A stretch of DNA of 42,011 nt from an uncultured Candidatus Saccharibacteria bacterium (GCA_964550955.1 CAZKAF010000001.1:459920-501930), one strand, 5' to 3'. Shown: positions 1,904 through 38,204, counted from the stretch's first letter. Notes: generated by a model not told the origin, from the sequence alone. Translations and numbers: made by a program.

Positions 1904-3005
1904 GCCTTGCCCGGGGAATCTGAATGACAACCTCGGTCCCCTCATTGACCTTGCTTGAAATGGTGACGGTCCCCTTATGCTGCTCGATAATCTGCTTCGC
2001 GATCGGCAGGCCCAGGCCGGAACCGCTGCCGCTCGTTCTTGAATGCGAAGCCTTGTAAAATCGGTCGAATACGTGAGGCAGATCTGCTTTTGAAATGCCG
2101 ACGCCCGTATCCTTTATGACCAGCCGCATGGAAGAGGGCGTGTCGGACAAGGACACTTTTATCGAGCCCTTCTCCGGCGTGTAGTTGATGGCATTCTGTA
2201 TGACGTTCTGTATCGCCCTTTCAAGATGGTTTACGTGCGCCTGCGCGAAGAGCGCCTTGCCCGCATCCTTTTTCAGCTCAAGGGCGATGCCCTTCATGGA
2301 CGCCTGCTTGGACATCTTGTCGCAGATTTTCTCGACGAAAGCTCCGAAATCCAGATTCTCGCTGTGGCCCGCCTGATTCTGATCGACGTATTGATACACG
2401 CCTTCGGTCCGGGCAAGCAGCAGCAAGTCCGAAACGAGCAGGGACATCTTGTCTATTTCTTCAAGATTGCTCGTAAGCGCGCCCCGATAGACCGCCGTCT
2501 GGGAAGAGCTGTCCTGCAGGGCGACCTCGGTCTCCGTTTTCATGATAGCAAGCGGAGTGCGGAGATCATGCGACACGTCGGCGACGAATCTTTTCTGATC
2601 GTCCAGCGCCCGCTTGATCGGCTTCAATGTCCTTCCCGCCAGGACATAGCTCGCGCCTCCGATAAGGACAAGCAGCATCGCGTCGACGGTCAGGACCAGC
2701 GTCTTGATGGCGCGGCTGGCATCATTGAAATCCTGCTCGTATATCTTGTTGATGCGCTCCATTCCGGCCAGGAAAATGGGAGTTCTCGGCAGCTCGCTGA
2801 CGAAGAGCTCGTTCCTGACCATGTGCCGCCGATACGCGGCCCGCATGTTCTTGTCTATTTCGCTCAGCAGGATGGTGCTGAAGAGCCCGATGATGATTAC
2901 CATGAAAAGCACGTAATACATCGTCAGGCGCAGGCGCGCTTTCAGGAACACGTTATGACTTAATGCGGTAGCCCATGCCATGAACTGTTTCGAGTATTGT
3001 TTCAT
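1893..3005 (-). CDS. sensor histidine kinase (HisKA + HATPase_c)
   Basis: H-box VSHDLRTPL. ATP-binding G-boxes DTGVGI and GSGLGLPIAKQIIEQHKG. N-terminal TM segment. The start is uncertain (3005, 2981 or 2921). It overlaps the upstream response regulator stop. Confidence 0.9.
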   Translation of the reverse strand: MKQYSKQFMAWATALSHNVFLKARLRLTMYYVLFMVIIIGLFSTILLSEIDKNMRAAYRRHMVRNELFVSELPRTPIFLAGMERINKIYEQDFNDASRAIKTLVLTVDAMLLVLIGGASYVLAGRTLKPIKRALDDQKRFVADVSHDLRTPLAIMKTETEVALQDSSSQTAVYRGALTSNLEEIDKMSLLVSDLLLLARTEGVYQYVDQNQAGHSENLDFGAFVEKICDKMSKQASMKGIALELKKDAGKALFAQAHVNHLERAIQNVIQNAINYTPEKGSIKVSLSDTPSSMRLVIKDTGVGISKADLPHVFDRFYKASHSRTSGSGSGLGLPIAKQIIEQHKGTVTISSKVNEGTEVVIQIPRARQKA

Positions 3006-3624
3006 TTTTCTTCTGTATCTTCTTTCGGAGATTTTTTATATGAGCGTCCACGACATTGCTGGCCGAATCCGAGGCGAAGTCCCAGACATGCTGGACGATC
3101 TGCTCTCGCGTCAGGACCTGGTCCAGATTTCTCATGCAGAACTCAAGAATAGCAAATTCTTTCGAGGTAAGCGAAACTTCCTTCCCGCCTTTCAGCACCT
3201 GATGCTTGGTAGTGTCGAGCACGAGGTCGGCGACGCGCAGCTCGGTAGTGACGGAATCCACAGGCCTTCGCAAAAGCGCATGAACGCGAGCGAGGAGCTC
3301 CTCGAACGCGAAAGGCTTCACCAGATAATCGTCGGCGCCGGCATCGAGCCCTTGCACGCGGTCTTCGATCGCGTCTTTCGCGGTCAGCATCAGGATCGGA
3401 ACCGTTATGTTCATTTTTCTCAAAGTCTGGCAGATAATCATGCCGTCAAGATTCGGCAGCATTCGGTCCAGCAGGACGAGATCATACTGATGATGGTCGT
3501 GCTCGAGGCGGCGCATGGCCTGCCCGCCGTCGTATATCGTATCGACGGCGTATCCCTTCTGCTCCAATCCCCTTTTTATGGAATCGGCTAGCTTTTGCTG
3601 GTCTTCTACGATTAAAATTCTCAT
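2953..3624 (-). CDS. OmpR-family response regulator
   Basis: Receiver domain MRILIVEDQ...DLVLLDRMLPNLDG...LTAKD. Winged-helix C-terminus ...LTSKEFAILEF...VHGMGYRI. Confidence 0.92.
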   Translation of the reverse strand: MRILIVEDQQKLADSIKRGLEQKGYAVDTIYDGGQAMRRLEHDHHQYDLVLLDRMLPNLDGMIICQTLRKMNITVPILMLTAKDAIEDRVQGLDAGADDYLVKPFAFEELLARVHALLRRPVDSVTTELRVADLVLDTTKHQVLKGGKEVSLTSKEFAILEFCMRNLDQVLTREQIVQHVWDFASDSASNVVDAHIKNLRKKIQKKNETILETVHGMGYRIKS

Positions 3625-12739: not shown

Positions 12740-12810
12740 TGCCAGTTCGTCTAATGGTAGGACACATCCCTCTGGAGGATGTTATTGGGGTTCGAGTCCC
12801 TGACTGGCAG
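12740..12810 (+). tRNA. tRNA-Gln: tRNA-Gln (anticodon CUG)
   Basis: Hand-folded cloverleaf. Acceptor TGCCAGT/ACTGGCA with U1:A72 and discriminator G. D-arm GTCT/GGAC. Anticodon stem CATCC/GGATG with loop CT-CTG-GA. T-arm TGGGG-TTCGAGT-CCCTG. No encoded CCA. Confidence 0.9.
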
Positions 12811-12812
12811 CA
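12793..12812. repeat. attL-type direct repeat (3' end of tRNA-Gln)
   Basis: CGAGTCCCTGACTGGCAGCA is repeated perfectly (20/20) at 19700-19719. The flanking bases differ on both sides. Confidence 0.8.
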
Positions 12813-12823
12813 CTCATAAAAAT

Positions 12824-12849
12824 CGTACCCGTAGACCTAGACGGGTCAG
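12824..12849. repeat. imperfect-palindrome repeat, copy 1
   Basis: CGTACCCGTAGACCTAGACGGGTCAG. The 16-bp core GACCTAGACGGGTCAG (12834-12849) recurs exactly at 19412-19427. The arms ACCCGT/ACGGGT are self-complementary. Confidence 0.6.
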
Positions 12850-12886
12850 ATTACGAGAAAGATTTAAGTAGAGTTATAATTACATT

Positions 12887-13702
12887 ATGAAAACGCTAGT
12901 CATAATAAATGGAGTTACCGGAGCCATCGGGACAGCGTGTCTCGCTCGTTTTAGCCGTGAACATAACGTCACCATTTACGGTCTCTCAAGAAAGGCCGAT
13001 CCAGTGTCTACGTTTAGTAAGGATGGACATCTTCCAGACAATAGTCTTATTTGTTCAATTGGAGATATTACAGACAAAAATAATTGCCAGGCTTTTGTAG
13101 ATGCTATCGATCTATCTTTGTATGAAGAAATTGTCTATATACACGCGGTAGGTGTCTATCCATTTGAGATTGATGCTTCTGGAAATATCAAAGTTTCTCA
13201 CGATGATGACGGTGATGGAGTTGATGATAGGGTTGTCGAGCTTTCTTACAACGCTTTCTTTGCGATGACTGATGCACTGAAAGGTACAGACAAATCAACT
13301 AATGCTCTCATATTCGGCGGTATCGCCGACAAACATCATCCGGCAGTTCACAAATCTTGGTGGACTGTGATGGAGAAGGTTAAGGCCAATATGACTAAGA
13401 TTGCTTCAGAAGACAAAAATATTAATTTCTTCCTTCTCAATATCAGCTCTGTTATCTGCCCACATGAAATATTGACTCGACCTTTTGTTTTTCAAAATAC
13501 GAACGCAAATCCTCGTTTTTGGCTCATGCCACATGAAGTTGCTGAGGAAGTCGCAATGCTGACTCTTTCGGATTCACATAAAGGATTTGTTGAGCACGAT
13601 TTGTTCCACAAGGCTGATTACTATCAAGATGACTATTTTACTGAGAAGAAATTTACTGATCGTAAGAAAGCTGAACTTGGTATTGAAGACGCGGCAAAGT
13701 AA
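12887..13702 (+). CDS. atypical SDR-like Rossmann-fold NAD(P)-binding protein
   Basis: N-terminal VIINGVTGAIGTACLARF (TGxxGxxG). There is no canonical YxxxK. Acidic insert SHDDDGDGVDDRV. AT-rich island codon usage. Confidence 0.65.
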   Translation: MKTLVIINGVTGAIGTACLARFSREHNVTIYGLSRKADPVSTFSKDGHLPDNSLICSIGDITDKNNCQAFVDAIDLSLYEEIVYIHAVGVYPFEIDASGNIKVSHDDDGDGVDDRVVELSYNAFFAMTDALKGTDKSTNALIFGGIADKHHPAVHKSWWTVMEKVKANMTKIASEDKNINFFLLNISSVICPHEILTRPFVFQNTNANPRFWLMPHEVAEEVAMLTLSDSHKGFVEHDLFHKADYYQDDYFTEKKFTDRKKAELGIEDAAK

Positions 13703-13703
13703 T

Positions 13704-15029
13704 TCATTCAAGAACTACTCTCTTGTTGATGAGTATTAGCCGACTCGTAAACGATTGCATCAATTCTCGTTTCTCCTGAATCGCGCCTTTCTCAAGGATG
13801 TATTTCATGTAGCCTCTGATATCGAGTTTGTTCTGTCGAATCTTATCGTCCTCGGTCATTCCTAAAACCTTGCTTCTGAAATCTCCATAGCGTTCAATCT
13901 CTTTCTCTAGCTTGCCTTTGATGCCAACTTGGTTGATATCTATTCGGTCAATAATTTCAATAAGCTGAGAGACTAAGTCAGTTTCAGGGAGATAAGTGTT
14001 TTTACAGTTTTTATCGTGGAATTTGGTGCAACCGTAATAGATATATTTTCTGATCGAACCATCCGCCAAGTTTTTATACTTTTCTTCAGCTGTAATCCCT
14101 GATTTACACATTCCGCATTTCATGAGCTTGGTAAATGCGAATTCTTTGTCGCCTTTGCTTTCATGCGTATTCGTATCCAGTTTCTCCTGAACCTTTCTGA
14201 AAAGTTCCTGGCTTATGATCGGCTCGTGCTTTCCCGCATACCATTTGCCTGATTTGCGAGGGTACTCAATGAGTCCCATGTAGAAGTTGTTTCTAAGGAT
14301 TATGTAGATGTTGCTGATGGTCAGTGGCTTATTATTCTTTGTCGTAAATTTAACTTCATCTTTGAGCCATCGGAACATTTGTCGTCCACTGAATTTTTCA
14401 TATGCCGCTTTCTCGAACATCATTTTAATAATGTGTGATCGCAAGGGATCTACGACGACATGGCATTTCATCGTCCTATCTGGATGATTGAGGTATCCGG
14501 TAGGGGCCACTGAGGGCCATAGTCCCATCTCTACTCGGGACCTCAATCCTCGGGTGACGTTGATGCTCTTGTTGTCATTCTCGAGCTTTGCTTGCGAGCC
14601 GAGAATCATCAGGAGAAACTTCTCATTCGGGTTGTTGGTGAATCTTTGGCTATAAGTTTTTATTTCAATCAGTTTCTTTTGATCAAGAAGATCAACGAGT
14701 GCGCCGAGATCTCCGGCGTTACGACTGAGACGATCGGGATGCCATACGAGTAATCCGTTGAATTTTCCAATCCTGATATCGGCTATCAGTTGGTTAAAGA
14801 CTGGGCGTACGCCGCAATCTTTTGCTGAGTGTGCCTCGCGGTAAATTTCCTCGACATTGATAGCATTCTTGGTTGCCAGGTCCAACATTTCCTTAACTTG
14901 GGAATCAATTGACAGTGCTTGCTTTTCCTCTGCCTCGCTCGATTTTCGGGCATACAGGCAATACTTCATCACTGGTGGCGCTTCTGGGATTGCGGCGTTA
15001 TTTAGGTCTATTACGGCTTGGTTTTGCAT
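13704..15029 (-). CDS. large serine recombinase (resolvase N-domain + recombinase domain + zinc ribbon)
   Basis: YCLYARKSSEAEEKQALSIDSQ carries the catalytic Ser motif. The central recombinase domain is present. C-terminal Cys cluster CGMCKSG...YYGCTKFHDKNC. A coiled-coil tail follows. An alternative start is MKYCLY. Confidence 0.92.
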   Translation of the reverse strand: MQNQAVIDLNNAAIPEAPPVMKYCLYARKSSEAEEKQALSIDSQVKEMLDLATKNAINVEEIYREAHSAKDCGVRPVFNQLIADIRIGKFNGLLVWHPDRLSRNAGDLGALVDLLDQKKLIEIKTYSQRFTNNPNEKFLLMILGSQAKLENDNKSINVTRGLRSRVEMGLWPSVAPTGYLNHPDRTMKCHVVVDPLRSHIIKMMFEKAAYEKFSGRQMFRWLKDEVKFTTKNNKPLTISNIYIILRNNFYMGLIEYPRKSGKWYAGKHEPIISQELFRKVQEKLDTNTHESKGDKEFAFTKLMKCGMCKSGITAEEKYKNLADGSIRKYIYYGCTKFHDKNCKNTYLPETDLVSQLIEIIDRIDINQVGIKGKLEKEIERYGDFRSKVLGMTEDDKIRQNKLDIRGYMKYILEKGAIQEKRELMQSFTSRLILINKRVVLE

Positions 15030-15058
15030 ACAGACACGAACATACCGGACACGCTCAC

Positions 15059-15174
15059 GAAGTCTAGTGAATTCCGAGATACAGAGCAGAAAGATGGAGA
15101 AGTCTAGTTGGTAGGTCTAGAATCTTTGGTACAAATTAGTTATTTTGTCCCAAAGATATGTACTTCTGTCCCAA
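15059..15174. promoter_or_regulatory. divergent control region with phased direct repeats
   Basis: GAAGTCTAGT occurs at 15059-15068 and 15099-15108 (40-bp spacing), with AGGTCTAGA at 15113-15121. TGTCCCAA occurs at 15146-15153 and 15167-15174 (21-bp spacing), just upstream of ATG 15196. Confidence 0.35.
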
Positions 15175-16248
15175 GACTATGGTATCATTAGGTATATGAG
15201 GGAACAAATACGCAAAAAAAATATTCTAAATTTAATCAAATATCATGCAGATAAAAACGAAGGAGGCTTCAGAGCTGAAGCTTATGACATAGCTAGATAT
15301 TTTGATTCCATCGGTGACTCAGAATTGGCCCAGTATATTATGGCTCTTTTGTCGGGCACTAATACTTTTGTACCACAAGATAATGAATATGATCTACCTT
15401 TTTTCTCGAAAATTGACGTAATTAATGAGAGTCCTCTTCCTCTTCCTACATCGATTAAGAACGACATCATGGGTGTTATAAATTCCATCGGCCATAGGGT
15501 TGGGGTCAATAAATTTTTATTCGAAGGTGATCCAGGAACAGGCAAGACGGAGACAGTTAAACAGATCGCACGAATTCTTGAGCGGGAACTTTATGTAATT
15601 GATTTTGACGCTCTAATTGACAGTAAGCTTGGACAGACATCTAAAAATCTAGCCTCGGTTTTTGAAGAGTTAAGAAATTTGCCACAGCCTGATAAGGTCA
15701 TAATTTTATTTGATGAAATAGATGCCATTGCGCTGGATAGAATAAATTCTAACGATTTGCGTGAGATGGGTCGTGTCACATCCTCCATGCTTAAGGGTCT
15801 CGATGGTTTGAGTAGTAATGTTGTCCTAGTCGCTACAACTAATCTCTTCAAACAATTCGATAAAGCGTTACTTAGACGTTTTGATTCGGTTGTTAATTTC
15901 AACCGATACAGCAAAGATGAACTAATAGAAGTGGCCGAGTCTATATTGAATCGCTTTTTAAGTAAGTTCAAGTTTGCGGGACGCGACATGCGGCTCTTCA
16001 GGAAAATATTTATGACCACGGATCATATTCCATACCCAGGTGATTTGAAGAATCTTATTAAGACATCTCTCGCATTTAGTGATCCAGATAATGAATACGA
16101 TTATCTCAAAAAACTCTATGAGTCGCTTGATCCAAAGAACAACACAATTGGTTTAAAGACGCTACAGGATCGCGGCTTTACTGTTAGAGAAATAGAAATA
16201 CTAACAGGTATTTCAAAAAGTCAGGTTTCAAGGGAATTGAGTGAGTAA
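15145..16248 (+). CDS. AAA+ ATPase with C-terminal HTH-like tail (IetA-like by architecture)
   Basis: Walker A GDPGTGKT. Walker B IILFDEIDAI. VATTNLFKQFDKALLRRFD is a classic AAA core. The tail is GFTVREIEILTGISKSQVSRELSE. The track start 15145 is TTG. The in-frame ATG at 15196 (MREQIRKK...) is the more likely start. Confidence 0.9.
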   Translation: MSQRYVLLSQDYGIIRYMREQIRKKNILNLIKYHADKNEGGFRAEAYDIARYFDSIGDSELAQYIMALLSGTNTFVPQDNEYDLPFFSKIDVINESPLPLPTSIKNDIMGVINSIGHRVGVNKFLFEGDPGTGKTETVKQIARILERELYVIDFDALIDSKLGQTSKNLASVFEELRNLPQPDKVIILFDEIDAIALDRINSNDLREMGRVTSSMLKGLDGLSSNVVLVATTNLFKQFDKALLRRFDSVVNFNRYSKDELIEVAESILNRFLSKFKFAGRDMRLFRKIFMTTDHIPYPGDLKNLIKTSLAFSDPDNEYDYLKKLYESLDPKNNTIGLKTLQDRGFTVREIEILTGISKSQVSRELSE

Positions 16249-18493
16249 AACCATGAATGATATTCTTCTATTAAAAGGAACACTTCAAAGAAGGCCGCAC
16301 GAGAAAGCGGTCGTGATTCGTAATATGCCGAAGAATGCTCCGGCAGTGACCTCAGAAAAATTACTCTTTTTAATAAAACAACTTCAGGATTTAAAAAGTT
16401 ATTGGACGAGACAAAGTCTTATTAAAGGATGTTTGATTGATGTCTGTTATAAAGATGTTATTGCTAAAAGCAATAGAATTAGCGGTTTATTGTCTGGCGC
16501 AGGTTCTGTTAGTGATTCAGTAGTCGGTGCACGATTCGCCAAGGAAATGCATAAGCATATAATTACTCATTATATTGGGGAGAGTGTTGTCCAATCTACT
16601 ATTGAAAATTTGTACCACTGCATAAAGATTTTAGATTCTGAGTTTAGCGGTTCGATAACCCAAGTCGATCTTGAAAGTACAAAGATAAAAGAAATTAAGT
16701 ATGAGCAATGTGGAATTGGAAAGACTCGATTTCGAAACATGATTGTTGATGCTAACTACGTTGAGGGTTTTAAAATTCCAGATAACTCCGCAAACATTAG
16801 CAATAGGTCTATTATTACAATCTACAGAACAGATACAAAATTAGATGTTCTAATGAAGAGTATTGGTATAAACGTTCAGCCAGATTATGTTTTAAGTAAC
16901 ACAACACTACTCTTATATCCAGAGGAAATTAAACTTTTGGAACAAAAGGCTCCATATTTAATTGCTATGGCCACTGAAGATATATCGCAACTCAGTAGTG
17001 AAAATTTCACAAACAGTAAAAGTGATGGAGACACGATCACTATACCCGCACCAGCAAATGAACCCATTATAGGTGTAATCGATACTCTATTTGATGGAAA
17101 GAATGTTTATTTTTCTGAATGGGTAGACTTTAGAATGGCAATCGATTCTGAGATACCTGTTGGTCCTGAAGATTATGATCATGGTACAGCGGTGACTTCA
17201 CTTATTGTGGATGGACCCTCTTTTAATCCACATCTAGACGATGGGTGTGGGCGATTTAGAGTGCGCCATTTTGGTGTCACTACGCAGGGTAAGTATAGTG
17301 CATTCTCAATTATGAAAAAGGTGAACGAAATTGTTATTGCAAACCCTGATATCAAAGTTTGGAATCTGTCCTTGGGTTCTGACAGAGAAATTAATCTAAA
17401 TTTTATATCACCTGAGGCAGATATTTTAGATAGGATTCAATACGAGAATGATGTTATTTTTGTGGTGGCTGGTACCAATAAGCGTGACAATGACACAGCT
17501 ACTGAAAAACGAATCGGTTCGCCAGCAGACTCAATTAATTCCATAGTTGTTAATTCGGTAAATAGTTCAGGTGAGCCAGCATCGTATGCTAGAAAAGGGT
17601 TGGTTTTATCTTTCTTTAATAAACCCGATGTAAGTAGTTATGGGGGCGATACCAATGATTATATCAGGGTTTGTACGCCAACCGGTGAAGGGTGGCGTAC
17701 GGGAACGTCGTTTGCTGCACCATGGGTGACTCGAAAGGTTGCGTATTTGATTGAAATCTTAGGACTTAGTCGAGAAGTTGCAAAAGCAATGATTGTTGAT
17801 TCGGCTACTGGTTGGAGCAGTACCGCTAATGATAGTAAGTTGGCGCCCTTTGTGGGACATGGTGTGGTGCCAAAAAGAATTGAAGATGTGGTGCAAACAA
17901 ATGACGATGAAATTAAATTTATTTTTAGTGACGTGTCTGAAAACTGGGATACGTATACATATCACCTACCTGTCCCGATCCATAAAGGAGCACACCCTTT
18001 TATTGCAAAAGCAACTTTGTGCTATTTTCCGAGTTGCTCCATAAACCAAGGTGTGGACTACACTGATACCGAATTAGATGTCTATTTTGGAAGAATGAAA
18101 AATGGAAAGATTATAACAATAAATGAAAATAAACAGAGTAGTGACGATGGTGAGAAACATTATATGTACGAAGGAGAAGCGAGAAAACTTCACCGAAAAT
18201 GGGATAATGTTAAACATATCCGTAAGCCTCTTAAGGCAAAAGTAGGAGCTTTAAAAGTTTACGGTAATGATGGTTTGTGGGGGTTGAGCATTAAGTCAAA
18301 AGAGAGGTTAGGTAAACGTGGTGAGGGTATAAAATTTGGAATCGTTGTAACTCTAAAGGAAATCAAGGGGGTTAATAGAATAAATGATTTTATTCATCGA
18401 TGTGAGCTACGTGGTTGGCTAGTAAATCGTGTAAACGTAGGTAACAGGATTGATATTTTCAACAAGGCTCAGGAAAGCATAACCTTCGGCTAA
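16241..18493 (+). CDS. cytoplasmic subtilisin-like S8 serine protease with large unassigned N- and C-terminal regions (IetS-like by architecture)
   Basis: Catalytic triad motifs GVIDTLFD (Asp, 17081-17083), DHGTAVTS (His, 17180-17182) and GTSFAAPW (Ser, 17708-17710). No signal peptide. GTG 16241 overlaps the upstream stop. The alternative ATG 16253 lies 5 nt after it. Confidence 0.9.
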   Translation: MSKTMNDILLLKGTLQRRPHEKAVVIRNMPKNAPAVTSEKLLFLIKQLQDLKSYWTRQSLIKGCLIDVCYKDVIAKSNRISGLLSGAGSVSDSVVGARFAKEMHKHIITHYIGESVVQSTIENLYHCIKILDSEFSGSITQVDLESTKIKEIKYEQCGIGKTRFRNMIVDANYVEGFKIPDNSANISNRSIITIYRTDTKLDVLMKSIGINVQPDYVLSNTTLLLYPEEIKLLEQKAPYLIAMATEDISQLSSENFTNSKSDGDTITIPAPANEPIIGVIDTLFDGKNVYFSEWVDFRMAIDSEIPVGPEDYDHGTAVTSLIVDGPSFNPHLDDGCGRFRVRHFGVTTQGKYSAFSIMKKVNEIVIANPDIKVWNLSLGSDREINLNFISPEADILDRIQYENDVIFVVAGTNKRDNDTATEKRIGSPADSINSIVVNSVNSSGEPASYARKGLVLSFFNKPDVSSYGGDTNDYIRVCTPTGEGWRTGTSFAAPWVTRKVAYLIEILGLSREVAKAMIVDSATGWSSTANDSKLAPFVGHGVVPKRIEDVVQTNDDEIKFIFSDVSENWDTYTYHLPVPIHKGAHPFIAKATLCYFPSCSINQGVDYTDTELDVYFGRMKNGKIITINENKQSSDDGEKHYMYEGEARKLHRKWDNVKHIRKPLKAKVGALKVYGNDGLWGLSIKSKERLGKRGEGIKFGIVVTLKEIKGVNRINDFIHRCELRGWLVNRVNVGNRIDIFNKAQESITFG

Positions 18494-18544
18494 AAATATT
18501 AGAGGGGATAACCCGACTACACAAATCTAAAGAAGGAAGCTAAG

Positions 18545-18907
18545 TTACTTACGTTCGTCCTCCGGCCAAGGCTTGGGGCCGAACATCTCGTCGATCTTCT
18601 TGATCTCCTCTTCTGTGAGCTCGCGCTTCGGAGGTCGCTCCGGTTCCGGATCTCCCCGGTACTTCGGCGGTTTTCCGTCCATGTGCTCCCAGATGAGCTT
18701 GATCATCCGATGATCGCCGTCCAATGCCATCTTTATGATTTTCTCAACCAACGCATCCGCAATAGTCTTGTCTTTTTCACTCGCAATCCTTTTGCTGAGT
18801 ATCTCTTGGAATTGGCTGGTTAAGCTCTTGCCCGGCGGCCTTCCGTTCAAGTTTCTTCTCGGGTCGAATCCACTCTGGAACGGCTTTAGATTATTGATGT
18901 TGCCCAT
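18545..18907 (-). CDS. small phage-like protein with KPFQSGxDPRRNxxGRP motif (paralogue 2)
   Basis: ORF 18545-18934. The likely start is ATG 18907: MGNINNLKPFQSGFDPRRNLNGRPPGKS... The motif is recalled from DUF5681-type phage/ICE proteins. Confidence 0.7.
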   Translation of the reverse strand: MGNINNLKPFQSGFDPRRNLNGRPPGKSLTSQFQEILSKRIASEKDKTIADALVEKIIKMALDGDHRMIKLIWEHMDGKPPKYRGDPEPERPPKRELTEEEIKKIDEMFGPKPWPEDERK

Positions 18908-19256
18908 GGTCGTTTCGCTTAAAATACTTCTCAAAATCCGCCTGTTCTTCGGGCGTGTATTCGACCTTTTCTTGCGGCATAAACGGGGTAGCTACCTCGA
19001 ACGTCTCCGGCACCTTGCCGTCCACTCGGTCGATGACCATGCTCATAGCTTTAAGGTTGCCCTTGGCCGCCATCCGGACAACTCTCTCCACGATCGCCTG
19101 GTCCACCCGGATCTTTCTCCCATTCACCTCTACTTCCTTACCCAGAACCTTCATGAAAAGGGTCCTCCAATTCTTCGATCCCTTCGGCCTACCCTTGGTA
19201 TTCCTTCGCGGATCGTACCCTGATTGAAAGGGCTTCAATGTTTTAATATTTCCCAT
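18891..19256 (-). CDS. small phage-like protein with KPFQSGxDPRRNxxGRP motif (paralogue 1)
   Basis: ORF 18891-19298. The likely start is ATG 19256: MGNIKTLKPFQSGYDPRRNTKGRPKGSKN... It has the same architecture as the downstream paralogue. Confidence 0.7.
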   Translation of the reverse strand: MGNIKTLKPFQSGYDPRRNTKGRPKGSKNWRTLFMKVLGKEVEVNGRKIRVDQAIVERVVRMAAKGNLKAMSMVIDRVDGKVPETFEVATPFMPQEKVEYTPEEQADFEKYFKRNDHGQHQ

Positions 19257-19404
19257 ATCCGGTATTTTACCGGCTTTTTTGTTTGTAAAGGGGTGCATTA
19301 CTTTCTCGCAGTTATTTTCACAGATAAAAGGGTGAAAACGGTGCTATTTGATCCTTTGGGATTCCCGTAATTTCACAGTATTTACGGGTATTTTTGCAAA
19401 AACA

Positions 19405-19427
19405 CGAACCCGACCTAGACGGGTCAG
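19405..19427. repeat. imperfect-palindrome repeat, copy 2
   Basis: CGAACCCGACCTAGACGGGTCAG. The 16-bp core is identical to 12834-12849. Relative to copy 1 it has a 3-bp deletion in the left arm. Confidence 0.6.
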
Positions 19428-19615
19428 TTGGCGAGGAGGCTATGTGATAGAATATGGCTTAACAGCTTGGTCAGTTCCGTACCTGACCACGACACGCAGC
19501 TCGAGAAAATTAAGGCGCCCGAAGCCAAAGCTGAGGGTGTTTTAATTTTGTCGCCGAGGTGTACGATATCGGGGACGAGAAAGGCGGAAGAAAAGTGCCG
19601 GGGCGCACTTTTCTG
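19428..19615 (+). ncRNA. candidate structured RNA / conserved non-coding element (copy A)
   Basis: A GC-richer non-coding stretch inside the AT-rich island. Hairpins: 19468-19489 (TGGTCAG/CTGACCA), 19554-19572 (CCGA/TCGG around GGTGTACGATA) and 19590-19613 (GAAAAGTGC/GCACTTTTC). Blocks CCCGAAGCC, TGTTTTAATTT, GAGGTGTAC and GGGACGAGAA are shared, with the same order and similar spacing, with 25606-25674. Strand and ends are not established. Confidence 0.35.
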
Positions 19616-19699: not shown

Positions 19700-19719
19700 C
19701 GAGTCCCTGACTGGCAGCA
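19700..19719. repeat. attR-type direct repeat (copy of tRNA-Gln 3' end)
   Basis: Identical 20-mer to 12793-12812. The upstream sequence does not complete a T-arm, so this is a partial tRNA duplication and not a gene. Confidence 0.8.
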
Positions 19720-19745
19720 AATAGATTTCGTGTAATAATTAAAAG

Positions 19746-20399
19746 ATGAATACGCTATATCTCATCGGAGGTTCTCCACGATCGGGCAAGACCATCATCT
19801 TTAATAAATTGCTGGTTCAAAGGCCGATGATTGCCATTTCATCTGACGCATTAAGGGAAGGAGGAAGATATGCGCTGACAAGCGAGCGCTTTATAAATAT
19901 CCATAAGCTGAACTTCAAAAGTGACGCGGTCTTTCACAGGGCAGGAGAAGACAAGGGAATTTCTCATACAAAATCTTTTTCAGAAGAAATCAGCCAGGAT
20001 GAGCTCACATGGAAAATAATCAGAGGAATAATTTCTTTTTACGATAAAAAGGACACCTCTTTGATGATCGAAGGCATGGTCATTACCCCTGAACGAGTCA
20101 AGGAATTAAAACTGGAAAAGCTTAATCTAAAAGCCGTCTTCGTAGGATTTACTGAAGAATCGTATTGGGAAAGCATGATTGAGTACTCTAATGCTAAAAA
20201 AGACTGGATTTACAAAAAGATCAATCTTGAAGATAAGGGAGATGATTCAGCGGTTAAAAAGTGGTTTGATGAAGAGAGGCAGAAGAATATAATTACTGCC
20301 GAAAATGCTAAAAGTAACGGTTACAACTTCTTTTCTCCGACGAGCGAATCGTTTGATGAGTATACAGAGAATGTCATTAAGCACTTATTGGGCAATTAA
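19746..20399 (+). CDS. P-loop NTPase / small-molecule-kinase-like protein
   Basis: MNTLYLIGGSPRSGKTIIFNKL (Walker A). LMIEGMVITPE is Walker B-like. AT-rich. No finer family recognised. Confidence 0.8.
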   Translation: MNTLYLIGGSPRSGKTIIFNKLLVQRPMIAISSDALREGGRYALTSERFINIHKLNFKSDAVFHRAGEDKGISHTKSFSEEISQDELTWKIIRGIISFYDKKDTSLMIEGMVITPERVKELKLEKLNLKAVFVGFTEESYWESMIEYSNAKKDWIYKKINLEDKGDDSAVKKWFDEERQKNIITAENAKSNGYNFFSPTSESFDEYTENVIKHLLGN

Positions 20400-20534
20400 G
20401 TGGCTGGGCTTCAACTTCGTCCCTGACAACCAGCCAGGAAAAGAACAGGCGTGCCTGCTGAGAGCAAATAGCCAGACAGAAAATTACTTAAGCCCAATGA
20501 GCGGCTTTCTGTTCTTATGTTGGCGCTATAAACG

Positions 20535-21233
20535 TTAGTTTGCAATACGGACTGTTGGCAACTTGTCGCTGCTGTGGGTGGCAATGAATCTGAGTAACCC
20601 ATAGATGGTAATGATAAAAGCGGTGTTTTCCAGCCCTTCTTCCAGCACATTAAGGAAAGGATAGGTGAGGTTTTCGTAGAAACCACTAGCCTCCCAGTAT
20701 ATTCCAGAAATCATTTCCACGCAGATCGCGCCAAAGAGCGCGAGCGCGGCACTGGCAAAAGTGATCTTTGCCCTGTAAGGAAGATGCATGAAGAATCGCA
20801 ATAAACTGGCGCAAATGACCATGAGAATAATGATGCCAGGAATCACCCAGGCGAAGAAGAACGCTCCTTCGGTGATGCCGAACATGTCTTGAAATGGTTC
20901 GGTGGCGAGCTCATGCAACGATGAACCTTCATCAATACCGGCGAAGAGAAACAACCCAGCCAAGAACCACCAGGTTTTTACAAACCCCGCCTTCGCTTGT
21001 TTGGCAACAAGGGCAGTATATCCAAAGAGCAAAGAGGCAACAAAAAGAAGTGATTGTGCAAACCACGTCGGGATACTGATCTCACTATCCATATTAAATC
21101 GACTTGCTATCTGGTACATGAGCGGCGAAAGGTCGGTGTTGATGATGAAAAACTGCGACACGAGATGCAGGATAATCAAAAGGAGGTTGGCAGCAATGAG
21201 TATCAAAAATAGTTTACGGGCGGAAATTATCAT
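20535..21233 (-). CDS. polytopic membrane protein, unknown function
   Basis: About 6-7 hydrophobic helices across 232 aa (LFLILIAANLLLIILHLVSQFFII, TWFAQSLLFVASLLFGY, WWFLAGLFLFAGI, FFFAWVIPGIIILMVICA, and others). Confidence 0.75.
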   Translation of the reverse strand: MIISARKLFLILIAANLLLIILHLVSQFFIINTDLSPLMYQIASRFNMDSEISIPTWFAQSLLFVASLLFGYTALVAKQAKAGFVKTWWFLAGLFLFAGIDEGSSLHELATEPFQDMFGITEGAFFFAWVIPGIIILMVICASLLRFFMHLPYRAKITFASAALALFGAICVEMISGIYWEASGFYENLTYPFLNVLEEGLENTAFIITIYGLLRFIATHSSDKLPTVRIAN

Positions 21234-21283
21234 AAAAGGCAGTATACCAAAAAACGTCCGTCAGCAAAGACCATGCTTTGTCC

Positions 21284-21304
21284 TGGGTATCCAGGTTCGA
21301 GTCC
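21284..21304. other. degenerate tRNA 3'-end-like remnant
   Basis: GGTTCGAGTCCCATATCGGCA versus tRNA-Gln GGTTCGAGTCCCTGACTGGCA (12789-12809). By my count 16 of 21 positions match, including a 12-nt exact run. There is no matching 5' acceptor strand upstream. It sits where AT-rich sequence returns to GC-rich. Confidence 0.4.
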
Positions 21305-21360
21305 CATATCGGCATTTTTAGGCGCATTTGATATTACATCACAAGAAAGCGCAGAAGTGA

Positions 21361-37229: not shown

Positions 37230-38204
37230 TTAGAGATTCTTTTCAGCTTCGATGAAATCGTCCATGTGCCCGTCGAATACTTTTTCCACCTGGCTGGTCT
37301 CATGCCCGGTCCGGTGATCCTTGACCATCTTGTACGGATGCATGACATACGAGCGAATCTGATTTCCCCATTCGATGTCCGTCGTCTTGCTTATGTACAT
37401 CCCTTTTTCCCTCGCGACTCTCTCTTCCTCCATTCGCGTGAAGAGCTTTCCTTTCAGGATGGCAAGCGCCTTCTCCTTGTTCTGCGCCTGCGCTCGCTCG
37501 CTCGTGACATGCACCGAGAGCTTCGTCGGCTTATGAACGATTCTGACCGCGGTCTCCCTCTTGTTCACGTTCTGTCCGCCGGGACCGCCCGACTTGGCGA
37601 AGCTGATGTCCAGGTCGTCATCGGGAATGTCGAGCTCTATATTCTTGTCGAACTTCGGAATGACTTCCACCATCGAAAACGACGTATGGCGCAGCTGCTT
37701 TGAGTTGAACGGAGAAAGGCGGACAAGCCGGTGAACGCCGGACTCGTGCTTCAGGATTCCGAAAACGCCCCTTCCGATGATTTCAAAAGTGATGTTCCTG
37801 AATCCGCCCCTGTCGTTTGCATGATCGTGCAGGATTGATGCGACCCAGCCCTTGCGCGCGATGTACTTCGAATACATCTCAAAAAGGATGCGCGAGAAAT
37901 CTTCGGCATCATCGCCTCCAGCTCCGGAGAAAATAGTGACAACGGCACCGAGCGCGTCATAAGGACCAGCGCCCGCAGGCGCTCCGTTTTTCAAGTCATT
38001 GTATTCCTTGAGCAGTGCCTGCGCCTTGTCCTTGTCATTCCAGAAATCGGCCTCTGACATCATGGATTCGATTTCCAAGATGCGCTCGGCATGAGGATTT
38101 GCCGCATTGGCGGACAAGTCCGCATCGGAAGGGACGGCGGGCGGCGGAAGCGGCTTAGGACTTTTGCCTGCCGCGTCTGTCGGATTTTGATCGGCTGAAC
38201 TCAT
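37230..38204 (-). CDS. prfB: peptide chain release factor 2 (single ORF, shortened domain 1)
   Basis: SPF motif (RLSPFNSK), which is RF2-specific. GGQ motif (SGGPGGQNVNK). GVHRLVR. No in-frame UGA or frameshift site. Confidence 0.92.
   Translation of the reverse strand: MSSADQNPTDAAGKSPKPLPPPAVPSDADLSANAANPHAERILEIESMMSEADFWNDKDKAQALLKEYNDLKNGAPAGAGPYDALGAVVTIFSGAGGDDAEDFSRILFEMYSKYIARKGWVASILHDHANDRGGFRNITFEIIGRGVFGILKHESGVHRLVRLSPFNSKQLRHTSFSMVEVIPKFDKNIELDIPDDDLDISFAKSGGPGGQNVNKRETAVRIVHKPTKLSVHVTSERAQAQNKEKALAILKGKLFTRMEEERVAREKGMYISKTTDIEWGNQIRSYVMHPYKMVKDHRTGHETSQVEKVFDGHMDDFIEAEKNL

What the first reader, a model, noticed from the sequence alone, without database searches (positions are those of the whole stretch)
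15145..18493. AAA+ ATPase plus cytoplasmic subtilisin-like (S8) protease operon: IetAS-like candidate anti-phage module on an AT-rich island
Seen in the first ORF: a classic AAA core with Walker A GDPGTGKT (Lys codon 15544-15546), Walker B IILFDEID and an LLRRFD arginine region.

Seen at the junction: the first ORF is translationally coupled to a 750-aa ORF. GTG 16241 overlaps the TAA at 16246-16248, and the next ATG at 16253 is only 5 nt after it.

Seen in the second ORF: a complete S8 triad. This is Asp281 in GVIDT (17081-17083), His314 in DHGTAV (17180-17182) and Ser490 in GTSFAAPW (17708-17710). The protease has no signal peptide or TM segment. Its catalytic core lies between ~275 N-terminal and ~220 C-terminal residues in which I recognise nothing.

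Established, as I recall it: an AAA ATPase paired with an S8 peptidase is the architecture of the IetAS defence system (Gao et al. 2020). Its trigger, substrate and mechanism remain unknown.

Inference: this is a defence or abortive-infection module carried as island cargo. The unassigned protease domains are candidate sensor or substrate-recognition parts. Finding it in a reduced, CPR-like genome on a serine-recombinase element would be an unusual context.
Basis: partly seen in the sequence, partly recalled or inferred. Interest (0 to 1): 0.8.

Follow-up and report, generated by a model that had tools for sequence, protein, structure and literature searches.

The report
IetAS toxin–antitoxin defence pair on island
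The two genes are a genuine but ordinary member of the known IetAS family (an ATPase that restrains a toxic cytoplasmic protease, used for phage defence and element stabilisation), carried on a small mobile island in a Saccharibacteria-like genome.

Summary
Every motif and coordinate checks out, except that the real starts are most likely ATG 15196 (IetA, 350 aa) and ATG 16253 (IetS, 746 aa).

Both proteins hit the PADLOC Iet models strongly: IetA at 2.3e-42 over its full length and IetS at 2.4e-66. ietA lies directly upstream of ietS in 79 of 79 testable related loci.

The host is Saccharibacteria/Patescibacteria-like. The pair sits on a 6.9-kb AT-rich islet with a large serine recombinase, bounded by an exact 20-nt repeat of the tRNA-Gln 3' end.

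The "unusual context" claim fails. The closest relatives are mostly in CPR genomes, and the same architecture is an experimentally proven toxin–antitoxin pair in mycoplasmas and the JCVI minimal cell.

- IetA ends in a conserved helix-turn-helix.
- 66 of 76 ietA promoters carry two TGTCCC boxes, always 20 or 21 nt apart, bracketing the -35 element. This looks like an operator.
- IetS residues ~198-250 resemble a subtilisin propeptide, and the C-terminus is a beta-domain.
- The first 170 residues occur only in this subfamily.

Verdict: new member of a known kind, with modest interest.

The parts
12740..12811 (+). tRNA-Gln(CTG), the integration target of the islet
   Evidence: ARAGORN; Rfam tRNA at 54.6 bits
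12793..12812 (+). attL-like copy of the 20-nt direct repeat CGAGTCCCTGACTGGCAGCA (3' end of the tRNA)
   Evidence: the repeat finder family D5, 100% identical to 19700-19719
12887..13702 (+). 271-aa island ORF, weakly Rossmann/SDR-like, function unknown
   Evidence: Pfam Epimerase/adh_short sub-threshold only; no PADLOC or PHROG hit; GC about 39%
13704..15029 (-). Large serine recombinase (441 aa), the likely integrase of the islet
   Evidence: Pfam Resolvase 8.9e-23 + Recombinase 4.1e-15 + Zn_ribbon_recom 1.3e-6; phrog_95 integrase 2.1e-67; 55-56% identical recombinases lie next to ietAS in L002 and L161
15146..15188 (+). ietA promoter with a candidate operator. Two direct TGTCCC boxes (15146-15151 and 15167-15172, 21 nt start to start) are followed by an extended -10, TGGTATCAT (15180-15188), which ends 7 nt before the ATG
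   Evidence: 66 of 76 related loci have at least 2 GTCCC boxes within 150 nt upstream of ietA, always 20 or 21 nt apart. Background is 0.2 per kb, with 2 such pairs in 1.12 Mb
15196..16248 (+). ietA, a classical-clade AAA+ ATPase (antitoxin). Domains: N-terminal 3-helix bundle (aa 2-52, nt 15199-15351); AAA core and lid (aa 85-317); C-terminal helix-turn-helix (aa 320-349, nt 16153-16242)
   Evidence: PADLOC IetA PDLC02196 2.3e-42, full length; Pfam AAA; AF2 model pLDDT 78; Foldseek hits to Rix7, katanin, Rpt, p97, Vps4; weak HTH Pfam hits at E 0.05-0.14; HTH motif present in all 79 loci
16253..16762 (+). ietS N-terminal alpha/beta domain (aa 1-170), specific to this subfamily, function unknown
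   Evidence: pLDDT mostly 75-96; no Pfam hit; exhaustive search finds it only at the N-terminus of proteins of about 733-769 aa or fragments; not matched by proteobacterial IteS
16763..17002 (+). ietS propeptide-like (I9-like) module (aa about 171-250), ending in the near-invariant KAPYLIAMATED
   Evidence: hhalign extends from the catalytic core into the BPN' propeptide, IetS 198-250 against pro 27-77. Foldseek top hits are pro-forms: 3afg at 578 columns and 3whi at 406, against about 295 for mature subtilisins. NCBIfam IteS alignment starts at residue 196 in the 750-aa GTG-start numbering, i.e. residue 192 in the 746-aa numbering used here. Moderate evidence only
17030..17857 (+). ietS subtilisin (S8) catalytic core, aa about 260-535.
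   Evidence: Pfam PF00082 3e-31; triad and oxyanion Asn invariant in 37 homologues; PADLOC IetS PDLC02197 2.4e-66
17900..18493 (+). ietS C-terminal beta-rich domain (aa about 550-746), with the invariant RKWDNxK motif. It is shared with the distant IteS type
   Evidence: DSSP of the model; Foldseek prefers subtilases with C-terminal beta domains such as Tk-SP, KP-43, SubHal, Kex2 and PCSK9; tblastn to proteobacterial IteS reaches residue about 718
18545..19298 (-). Two overlapping paralogous DUF5681 ORFs (129 and 135 aa), island cargo of unknown function
   Evidence: Pfam DUF5681 at 7.2e-6 and 2.8e-11; phrog_26239 9e-8
19700..19719 (+). attR-like copy of the 20-nt repeat, right end of the 6.9-kb islet
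   Evidence: the repeat finder D5, 100%; no tRNA called here
19720..21314 (.). Second, decayed AT-rich islet. It holds a P-loop ORF (19746-20399) and a membrane ORF (20535-21233), and ends at a third tRNA-3'-like fragment (21294-21314)
   Evidence: the repeat finder D1, 81%. DNA homology to related Saccharibacteria genomes ends at about 21360, just downstream of the purL stop; nothing to the left of that point in the window is conserved in them. phrog_2071 ATPase 3.7e-6

Best explanation
This is a two-gene IetAS module of the "long" subfamily that also includes the mycoplasma TA132/133 pair. It rides on a 6.9-kb islet mobilised by a serine recombinase and integrated at the 3' end of tRNA-Gln in a Saccharibacteria-like (CPR) genome.

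Shown here:
- Family membership of both proteins.
- Intact ATPase and protease catalytic residues.
- Cytoplasmic location.
- Strict gene-pair conservation.
- The islet boundaries.

From the literature on homologues:
- IetS is a toxic cytoplasmic subtilase.
- IetA is the antitoxin that must be present and active.
- The pair stabilises its replicon and defends by abortive infection when a phage protein triggers it.

Inferred mechanism:
- IetA forms a classical AAA+ hexamer that uses ATP to hold or remodel IetS, so the protease stays latent. IetS still carries a propeptide-like inhibitory module in front of its catalytic core.
- Through its conserved C-terminal helix-turn-helix, IetA also binds the two TGTCCC boxes that bracket the -35 element and lie in the promoter spacer. 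This represses the operon, as type II antitoxins do.
- A phage-encoded trigger, or loss of the islet, disables or titrates IetA. IetS is then freed, possibly after self-processing, and cleaves essential cell proteins, killing or arresting the cell before phage release.
For: Family membership:
- PADLOC IetA 2.3e-42 (query 25-366 against model 5-369 of 374) and IetS 2.4e-66.
- NCBIfam best hits are IteA and IteS anti-phage models.
- Pfam AAA and S8.
- Catalytic residues are invariant.

Gene pair:
- ietA lies immediately upstream of ietS in 79 of 79 testable loci across many phyla.
- Identities of the two proteins co-vary (Pearson 0.94).
- More than 7,800 IetS and more than 6,100 IetA relatives were found.

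Structure:
- IetA falls in the classical AAA unfoldase clade.
- The HTH is seen in the model, in weak Pfam HTH hits, and as a motif in all 79 loci.
- The TGTCCC-N15/16-TGTCCC element is present in 66 of 76 promoters, against 2 such pairs in 1.12 Mb of background, and overlaps the -35/-10 elements.
- Propeptide-like module.
- No TM segment or signal peptide.

Islet:
- Exact 20-nt tRNA-3' repeat, GC drop, large serine recombinase, and loss of synteny with relatives.

Literature:
- Toxin-antitoxin behaviour in JCVI-syn and mycoplasmas.
- Abortive infection with a YosG trigger.
- Protease activity required and an ietA mutant unobtainable.
Against: - Nothing was tested experimentally in this host, and no phage of this organism is known.
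- Scores are far below the NCBIfam equivalog cut-offs (120.9 against 510 bits; 167 against 900 bits). This is not the E. coli-type IteAS but a distant subfamily (about 25% identity to proteobacterial IteS, over the catalytic and C-terminal regions only).
- No anti-phage assay known to me used this exact subfamily. The mycoplasma work showed toxin-antitoxin behaviour only.
- The IetA pore loop 1 (DSKLGQTSKN, invariant) lacks the aromatic residue typical of processive unfoldases.
- Pfam I9 does not hit the proposed propeptide-like module. The propeptide part of the hhalign alignment has low per-column confidence.
- HTH-to-box binding is inferred only from co-conservation. Both are nearly invariant, so there is no covariation test.
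- No IetA-IetS complex model could be made.
Confidence: 0.8

Rival explanations
1. The pair is purely an addiction (post-segregational killing) module. It keeps the small serine-recombinase islet in the genome and has no role in phage defence in this host.
For: - IetAS was first found as a plasmid-stability toxin-antitoxin system (cited).
- The mycoplasma and JCVI-syn homologues of this same subfamily were shown only to be toxin-antitoxin pairs.
- The module sits beside the recombinase on a minimal 6.9-kb islet.
- Related recombinases accompany ietAS in L002 and L161.
- No other PADLOC defence gene is on the islet.
Against: - Other IetAS members defend against phages by abortive infection.
- Addiction and defence are not mutually exclusive.
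- The closest relative (L161) lies among methyltransferase and DndB-type genes, typical of defence neighbourhoods.
Confidence: 0.14
2. The two genes form a housekeeping two-component ATP-dependent protease for proteostasis, with an AAA+ unfoldase feeding a subtilisin-type peptidase.
For: - The IetA AAA domain is closest to the Cdc48/p97, Rpt, FtsH and Vps4 unfoldases.
- The genes are tightly linked and cytoplasmic.
Against: - The best profiles are Iet, not proteostasis families.
- The pair sits on an AT-rich mobile islet that is absent from related genomes.
- Its distribution across phyla is patchy and mobile, including plasmids and phage contigs.
- In homologues the ATPase is essential only when the protease is present.
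- A C-terminal HTH and a conserved operator are not features of housekeeping unfoldases.
Confidence: 0.04
3. IetS is a secreted or maturation subtilase (for example for a peptide or lantibiotic), and the ATPase is an unrelated neighbour.
For: Foldseek hits include leader-peptide proteases (EpiP, PatA) among many subtilases.
Against: - No signal peptide or TM segment.
- No precursor-peptide or transporter genes on the islet.
- The ATPase is linked in 79 of 79 loci.
- The Iet profiles are by far the best matches.
Confidence: 0.02

Closest known systems
Mycoplasma / JCVI-syn TA132/133 (AAA-ATPase antitoxin + subtilisin-like toxin; PMC6755753, PMC8562856)
   Same: - Same two-gene order.
- Nearly the same sizes (353 + 757 aa there, 350 + 746 aa here).
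- Full-length homology of both proteins to Mycoplasmatales copies at 43-52% for IetS and 57-64% for IetA (L021, L053, H12).
- The Mycoplasmatales promoter checked, Metamycoplasma equirhinis L021, also has the two TGTCCC boxes.
- Also found in a reduced genome, on islands with flanking repeats.
   Different: - The host phylum differs (Patescibacteria against Mycoplasmatota).
- The exact M. mycoides proteins were not compared here.
- Only toxin-antitoxin behaviour, not phage defence, was shown for that pair.
IetAS / IteAS anti-phage system (Gao et al. 2020; PADLOC ietAS; NCBIfam NF042959/NF042956), originally the pTiC58 IetA/IetS toxin-antitoxin system
   Same: - AAA+ ATPase followed by a cytoplasmic S8 peptidase.
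- PADLOC Iet models are the best hits for both proteins.
- The propeptide-like module, catalytic core and C-terminal domain align with IteS.
   Different: - Only about 25% identity to proteobacterial and Agrobacterium IetS, with no match to the first ~190-270 residues.
- Scores are far below the NCBIfam equivalog cut-offs.
- The NCBIfam IteA match covers only the AAA core (121-283), so the N-terminal bundle and the C-terminal HTH may be specific to this subfamily.
ietHAS (IetAS plus SNF2 helicase; PMC13069673)
   Same: Shares the IetA and IetS components and toxin-antitoxin-like behaviour.
   Different: No helicase gene is adjacent here. The neighbours are a recombinase and DUF5681 genes.
Pro-subtilisins with C-terminal beta domains (Tk-SP 3afg, KP-43 1wmd, kexin/PCSK9)
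   Same: Same order of modules by fold: prodomain-like, S8 core, then a beta-domain.
   Different: - Those enzymes are secreted and are activated by cleavage of the prodomain.
- IetS is cytoplasmic, has an extra 170-residue N-terminal domain, and is controlled by an AAA+ partner.
Meiotic/classical-clade AAA ATPases (Vps4, katanin, spastin, p97 D1)
   Same: - Single AAA cassette with Walker A/B.
- An RRF arginine-finger motif and a GDL lid motif.
- A small N-terminal helical bundle.
- Foldseek and phmmer best hits.
   Different: - IetA has a C-terminal HTH.
- Its pore loop 1 has no aromatic residue.
- It is bacterial and borne on a mobile element.

Membership tests
IetAS (PADLOC/DefenseFinder Gao_Iet) | An AAA+ ATPase matching an IetA profile | tested here: met
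   PDLC02196 at E 2.3e-42, covering 25-366 of the protein and 5-369 of 374 model positions. Three further IetA models score 1e-21 to 1e-31.
IetAS (PADLOC/DefenseFinder Gao_Iet) | An S8 peptidase matching an IetS profile | tested here: met
   PDLC02197 at E 2.4e-66 (242-738 against 225-748 of 749). Four further IetS models score 1e-28 to 1e-43.
IetAS (PADLOC/DefenseFinder Gao_Iet) | The two genes are adjacent and co-oriented, with ietA first | tested here: met
   A 4-nt gap in the window. The same order holds in 79 of 79 testable loci.
IetAS (PADLOC/DefenseFinder Gao_Iet) | Intact ATPase residues (Walker A/B, sensor 1, Arg fingers) and protease residues (Asp-His-Ser triad plus oxyanion Asn) | tested here: met
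   Present in the window. K117, D173, E174, N216, R227 and R228 of IetA, and D277, H310, N371 and S486 of IetS, are invariant.
IetAS (PADLOC/DefenseFinder Gao_Iet) | Anti-phage (abortive infection) phenotype | not testable with these tools
   Known only for other members.
NCBIfam IteA/IteS equivalogs (E. coli-type) | Score at or above the curated equivalog cut-off | tested here: not met
   IteA 120.9 bits against 510; IteS 167 bits against 900. It is related to the equivalogs but is not one of them.
Mycoplasma-type TA132/133 subfamily | Full-length homology of both proteins, including the IetS N-terminal 250 residues | tested here: met
   Alignments over residues 1-745 at 49-52% identity to Metamycoplasma equirhinis and Mycoplasmatales loci, with IetA at 57-64%. 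M. hyorhinis gives 43%. The M. mycoides proteins themselves were not compared.
Mycoplasma-type TA132/133 subfamily | The toxin is lethal without the antitoxin | not testable with these tools
   Shown for homologues only.
Subtilases with an I9-type propeptide | A recognisable inhibitor_I9 prodomain N-terminal to the S8 core | tested here: inconclusive
   - No Pfam I9 hit even at E 10.
- hhalign runs into the BPN' propeptide with low per-column confidence.
- Foldseek ranks pro-forms first, with longer alignments.
- Model coordinates could not be inspected.
Classical-clade AAA+ ATPases | AAA fold with a second region of homology, and best similarity to Cdc48, Rpt, Vps4 and katanin | tested here: met
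   phmmer against the PDB gives Afg2 and Cdc48 at about 1e-24. Foldseek gives Rix7, katanin, Rpt, p97, Vps4, FtsH and spastin.
Integrated element mobilised by a large serine recombinase | A Resolvase + Recombinase + zinc-ribbon integrase inside a segment bounded by direct repeats at a conserved target | tested here: met
   Pfam domains; phrog_95; exact 20-nt repeat of the tRNA-Gln 3' end 6.9 kb apart; GC drop. Excision was not tested. It is not shown that this recombinase made these repeats.
Type II toxin-antitoxin autoregulation | The antitoxin carries a DNA-binding domain and the promoter carries a cognate operator | tested here: inconclusive
   An HTH is predicted, and the conserved TGTCCC pair overlaps the promoter. 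Binding was not tested.

The most novel reading that the evidence does not exclude
This widespread "long" IetAS subfamily may be a distinct type in which the AAA+ antitoxin does two jobs.

- It would act as the operon's DNA-bound repressor. Its invariant C-terminal HTH would read a TGTCCC-N15/16-TGTCCC operator conserved from CPR bacteria to Firmicutes, Mycoplasmatales and Fusobacteria.
- The toxin would be a cytoplasmic zymogen that keeps a subtilisin-like prodomain.

A phage trigger acting on IetA would then both de-repress transcription and release or mature the protease in a single step. Neither the HTH, the operator nor the prodomain-like module is mentioned in the papers I could read.
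Probability: 0.35. Interest if true: 0.5.

Novelty: new member of a known kind. Interest (0 to 1): 0.3.

Why it matters
As a catalogue entry it is ordinary: one more IetAS locus. DefenseFinder or PADLOC would call it automatically.

Its value lies elsewhere.
- a conserved promoter operator made of two TGTCCC boxes 20 or 21 nt apart;
- a conserved C-terminal helix-turn-helix on the antitoxin ATPase;
- a prodomain-like module in front of the protease core.

It also documents that this subfamily is common in CPR/Patescibacteria genomes and travels there on very small serine-recombinase islets at tRNA genes. That is relevant to how ultra-small episymbionts defend themselves or retain mobile DNA.

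Tried and rejected
- **Solved structure of IetS.** Sequence and profile searches of the PDB found none. The single-sequence search gave 0 hits, and the profile search gave only generic subtilisins at 1e-6.
- **Literature on the mechanism.** No paper in the held library has an IetAS structure. The original 2009 paper is not held. One search failed because of a term-length limit.
- **Shared island backbone.** No DNA similarity outside ietAS was found in any of the 80 IetS loci. Only the recombinase recurs, in L002 and L161.
- **Clean empty site.** Relatives share purL but not the neighbouring genes. L084 has tRNA-Gln 1.3 kb from purL with different small genes and its own tRNA-fragment scar. The site is therefore variable, but no exact empty site was found.
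- **Other defence genes on the islet.** PADLOC gave no hits.
- **Reuse of the IetS N-terminal domain in other proteins.** None was found.
- **Covariation between the HTH and the boxes.** Not possible, because both are nearly invariant. Loci with no box or one box still have the HTH.
- **Terminators.** None were predicted in 14900-18700.
- **Window-specific palindrome.** CTTTGGTACAAA (15124) / TTTGTCCCAAAG (15144) overlaps box 1. The left arm is not seen in the other loci listed, so I give it no weight.
- **prfB frameshift in the flank.** Looked for at 37230-38204; no sign of one.
- **Domain-level fold searches and a complex prediction.** Not possible.

Full report
**1. Observation**

The two ORFs are present as described. 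All the motifs sit at the stated coordinates:
- Walker A GDPGTGKT, with Lys AAG at 15544-15546.
- Walker B IILFDEID at 15700-15723.
- LLRRFD at 15868-15885.
- Catalytic Asp at 17081-17083, His at 17180-17182 and Ser at 17708-17710.

Pfam gives AAA at 6.5e-26 and Peptidase_S8 at 3e-31. Neither protein has a hydrophobic segment or a signal peptide.

Two small corrections apply. The database copies of these proteins are 350 and 746 aa (P0121, P0001), and homologues align from those residues. The starts are therefore ATG 15196 and ATG 16253. The genes are separated by 4 nt rather than overlapping through GTG 16241.

**2. Identity**

- PADLOC: IetA PDLC02196 at 2.3e-42 over essentially the whole protein, and IetS PDLC02197 at 2.4e-66.
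- NCBIfam: the best hits are the anti-phage IteA and IteS models, but at 121 and 167 bits against cut-offs of 510 and 900. This is a distant subfamily, not the E. coli-type equivalog.
- A tblastn search of plasmids shows two tiers. Full-length relatives at 43-54% identity occur on Clostridium perfringens plasmids and in Macrococcus and Mesomycoplasma. Proteobacterial and Agrobacterium IetS match at about 25%, over residues ~270-718 only.
- The family is very large: more than 7,800 IetS and more than 6,100 IetA relatives at E below 1e-5.

**3. Gene-pair conservation**

The genome collection returned 80 loci encoding IetS relatives at 47-69% identity. They come from Patescibacteria, Bacillota, Mycoplasmatota, Bacteroidota, Fusobacteriota and Pseudomonadota.
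- 79 of them have an IetA homologue directly upstream. The tblastn alignment ends are 7-20 nt apart in most loci, and about 105 nt apart in the eight loci where the IetS alignment starts at residue 31-32.
- The remaining locus has no upstream sequence to test.
- The identities of the two proteins co-vary (Pearson 0.94). They move as a unit.

**4. Host and island**

The neighbouring purL is 77-91% identical to genes in Saccharibacteria and other Patescibacteria MAGs. The protein's own contig is 696 kb. The flanks carry ordinary housekeeping genes. The CPR-like host is confirmed.

The GC content falls from about 52-57% to 35-44% across the gene pair. The last 20 nt of tRNA-Gln(CTG), at 12793-12812, recur exactly at 19700-19719. 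This bounds a 6.9-kb islet containing:
- an SDR-like ORF;
- a 441-aa large serine recombinase (Pfam Resolvase, Recombinase and Zn ribbon; phrog_95 integrase);
- ietA and ietS;
- two DUF5681 ORFs.

A further AT-rich 1.6 kb ends at a third, degenerate tRNA-3'-like fragment (21294-21314). DNA homology to related genomes covers purL and ends just downstream of its stop, at about 21360; nothing to the left of that point in the window is conserved in them. This stretch looks like an older, decayed insertion.

In L084, tRNA-Gln lies only 1.3 kb from purL, with different genes and its own tRNA-fragment scar. The site appears to be a hotspot.

Recombinases 55-56% identical to this one accompany ietAS in L002 and in L161. 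L161 holds the closest relative (88% IetS identity) and lies among methyltransferase and DndB genes.

**5. Is the context unusual?**

No.
- The closest IetS and IetA relatives are mostly from CPR lineages: Saccharibacteria, Shapirobacteria, Magasanikbacteria, Nomurabacteria and Azambacteria.
- The same architecture (353-aa AAA + 757-aa S8) was identified as a toxin-antitoxin pair in JCVI-syn2/3 by transposon bias and by knockouts (PMC6755753).
- It was shown to be functional in several mycoplasmas (PMC8562856).

**6. What is known about the family**

- IetAS was first described as a plasmid-stability toxin-antitoxin system on pTiC58. The protease is the toxin and the ATPase the antitoxin (as cited).
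- Gao et al. 2020 showed anti-phage activity.
- The B. cereus system acts by abortive infection and is triggered by SPbeta YosG.
- Protease activity is required, and an ietA mutant could not be constructed.
- In April 2026 the mechanism was still described as unknown.
- I found no solved structure.

**7. Anatomy found here: IetA**

The AlphaFold model has mean pLDDT 78. It shows:
- an N-terminal three-helix bundle, at low confidence;
- a classical AAA cassette;
- three C-terminal helices (residues 320-349) arranged as a helix-turn-helix.

Foldseek and phmmer place IetA with Rix7, p97/Cdc48, Rpt subunits, katanin, Vps4, spastin and FtsH. Walker A/B, sensor 1 and the RR of ALLRRFD are invariant. 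Pore loop 1 is an invariant DSKLGQTSKN with no aromatic residue. From memory, this resembles p97 D1.

The C-terminal motif GFTVREIExLTGxSKSxVSR is present in all 79 loci. It gives several weak HTH Pfam hits at the same position.

**8. Anatomy found here: the promoter**

66 of 76 loci have two GTCCC boxes within 150 nt upstream of ietA. The spacing is always 20 nt (34 cases) or 21 nt (32 cases). The remaining 1.12 Mb of locus sequence has 0.2 boxes per kb and only two such pairs.

The consensus layout is TTTGTCCCAA, a -35-like TTGAC, TTTGTCCCaa, then TG-n-TATAAT. One box abuts the -35 element and the other fills the spacer, which is the geometry of a repressor operator.

In the window the boxes are at 15146 and 15167, and the extended -10 TGGTATCAT is at 15180-15188. 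The -10 ends 7 nt before the ATG, which suggests a leaderless mRNA in the CPR copies.

I infer, but have not shown, that the IetA HTH binds these boxes and autoregulates the operon. The papers I read do not mention this.

**9. Anatomy found here: IetS**

The model has mean pLDDT 81 and pTM 0.86. It has four parts:
- a well-folded alpha/beta domain (residues 1 to ~165);
- a second small alpha/beta module (~170-250);
- the S8 core (~260-535);
- a beta-rich C-terminal domain (~550-746).

The best Foldseek matches are subtilases solved with their propeptide and/or a C-terminal beta domain. ProN-Tk-SP aligns over 578 columns, KP-43 and SubHal over 490, and pro-subtilisin E over 406. Mature subtilisins align over about 295 columns.

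A profile alignment to pro-subtilisin BPN' runs from the core back through propeptide residues 27-77. It pairs EEIKLLEQKAPYLIAMATED with KAVKELKKDPSVAYVEED. Pfam I9 itself does not hit. I rate the prodomain-like assignment as moderate.

The first 170 residues occur only at the N-terminus of IetS-length proteins or of fragments (294 cluster representatives). They are absent from the proteobacterial type, and their function is unknown.

**10. Mechanism**

Shown here: family membership, intact catalytic sites, cytoplasmic location, obligate pairing and mobile context.

From homologues: the roles of toxin and antitoxin, abortive infection, and triggering by a phage protein.

Inferred:
- The IetA hexamer keeps IetS latent in an ATP-dependent way.
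- IetA represses the operon through its HTH and the TGTCCC boxes.
- A phage trigger, or loss of the islet, disables IetA.
- IetS, possibly after removal of its prodomain-like module, then degrades essential proteins.

A model in which IetA activates IetS by extracting the prodomain is disfavoured. In homologues the protease is toxic without the ATPase.

**11. Verdict**

The thing is an ordinary, automatically detectable member of a known family, in a context that turns out to be common for that family.

The modest residual interest comes from the unsolved IetAS mechanism and from the three testable features described above.

Noticed in passing
window 15146-15188, and upstream of ietA in L001-L080 and L161: Two direct TGTCCC boxes, always 20 or 21 nt apart, bracket the -35 element and fill the spacer of ietA promoters in 66 of 76 loci from many phyla. 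This is a candidate operator for the IetA C-terminal HTH.
   Followed up: partly
window 15180-15198; L001-L003 and L161 upstream of ietA: In the CPR copies the -10 element ends only about 7 nt before the ietA ATG, which suggests a leaderless mRNA. Firmicutes copies have a leader of about 20 nt with a GGAGG Shine-Dalgarno sequence.
   Followed up: no
window 14681-14699 and 18587-18605: A 19-nt inverted repeat (95% complementary) flanks ietAS. One arm lies inside the recombinase gene (encoding LVDLLD) and the other inside a DUF5681 gene (encoding IKKIDE). The sequence is internally repetitive, so it may be chance.
   Followed up: no
window 12834-12857 and 19412-19435: A 24-nt hairpin-like direct repeat (88%) occurs near both islet ends. 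Its order relative to the tRNA-3' repeat is reversed at the two ends. Unexplained.
   Followed up: no
window 19720-21314: A second AT-rich stretch holds a P-loop ORF (19746-20399, phrog_2071 ATPase) and a membrane ORF (20535-21233). It ends at a degenerate tRNA-3'-like fragment (21294-21314). It is probably a decayed earlier insertion at the same hotspot.
   Followed up: partly
window 18545-19298 (-): Two overlapping paralogous DUF5681 ORFs (129 and 135 aa) are at the right end of the islet. In L161 the gene beside the related recombinase carries a faint Sf6_terminase Pfam mark, but tblastn found no match between the window's DUF5681 proteins and L161. Their role, for example in excision or mobilisation, is unknown.
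   Followed up: no
L084 (reverse-complement coordinates 2810-3100): A related genome has tRNA-Gln followed by a partial duplicate of the same tRNA, then RidA-like and Nudix genes before purL. This tRNA appears to be a recurrent integration site in the lineage.
   Followed up: partly
L102 1780-3069: A Uhrbacteria genome carries a serine recombinase 56% identical to the window's, within about 7 kb of its purL. This hints that related elements target the same neighbourhood in other CPR lineages.
   Followed up: no
L161 1-17000: The closest ietAS relative (88% IetS identity) sits beside a related serine recombinase, two N6/N4 methyltransferases, and a DndB-like gene with a D12 methyltransferase. 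This is a defence and mobile-element neighbourhood.
   Followed up: partly
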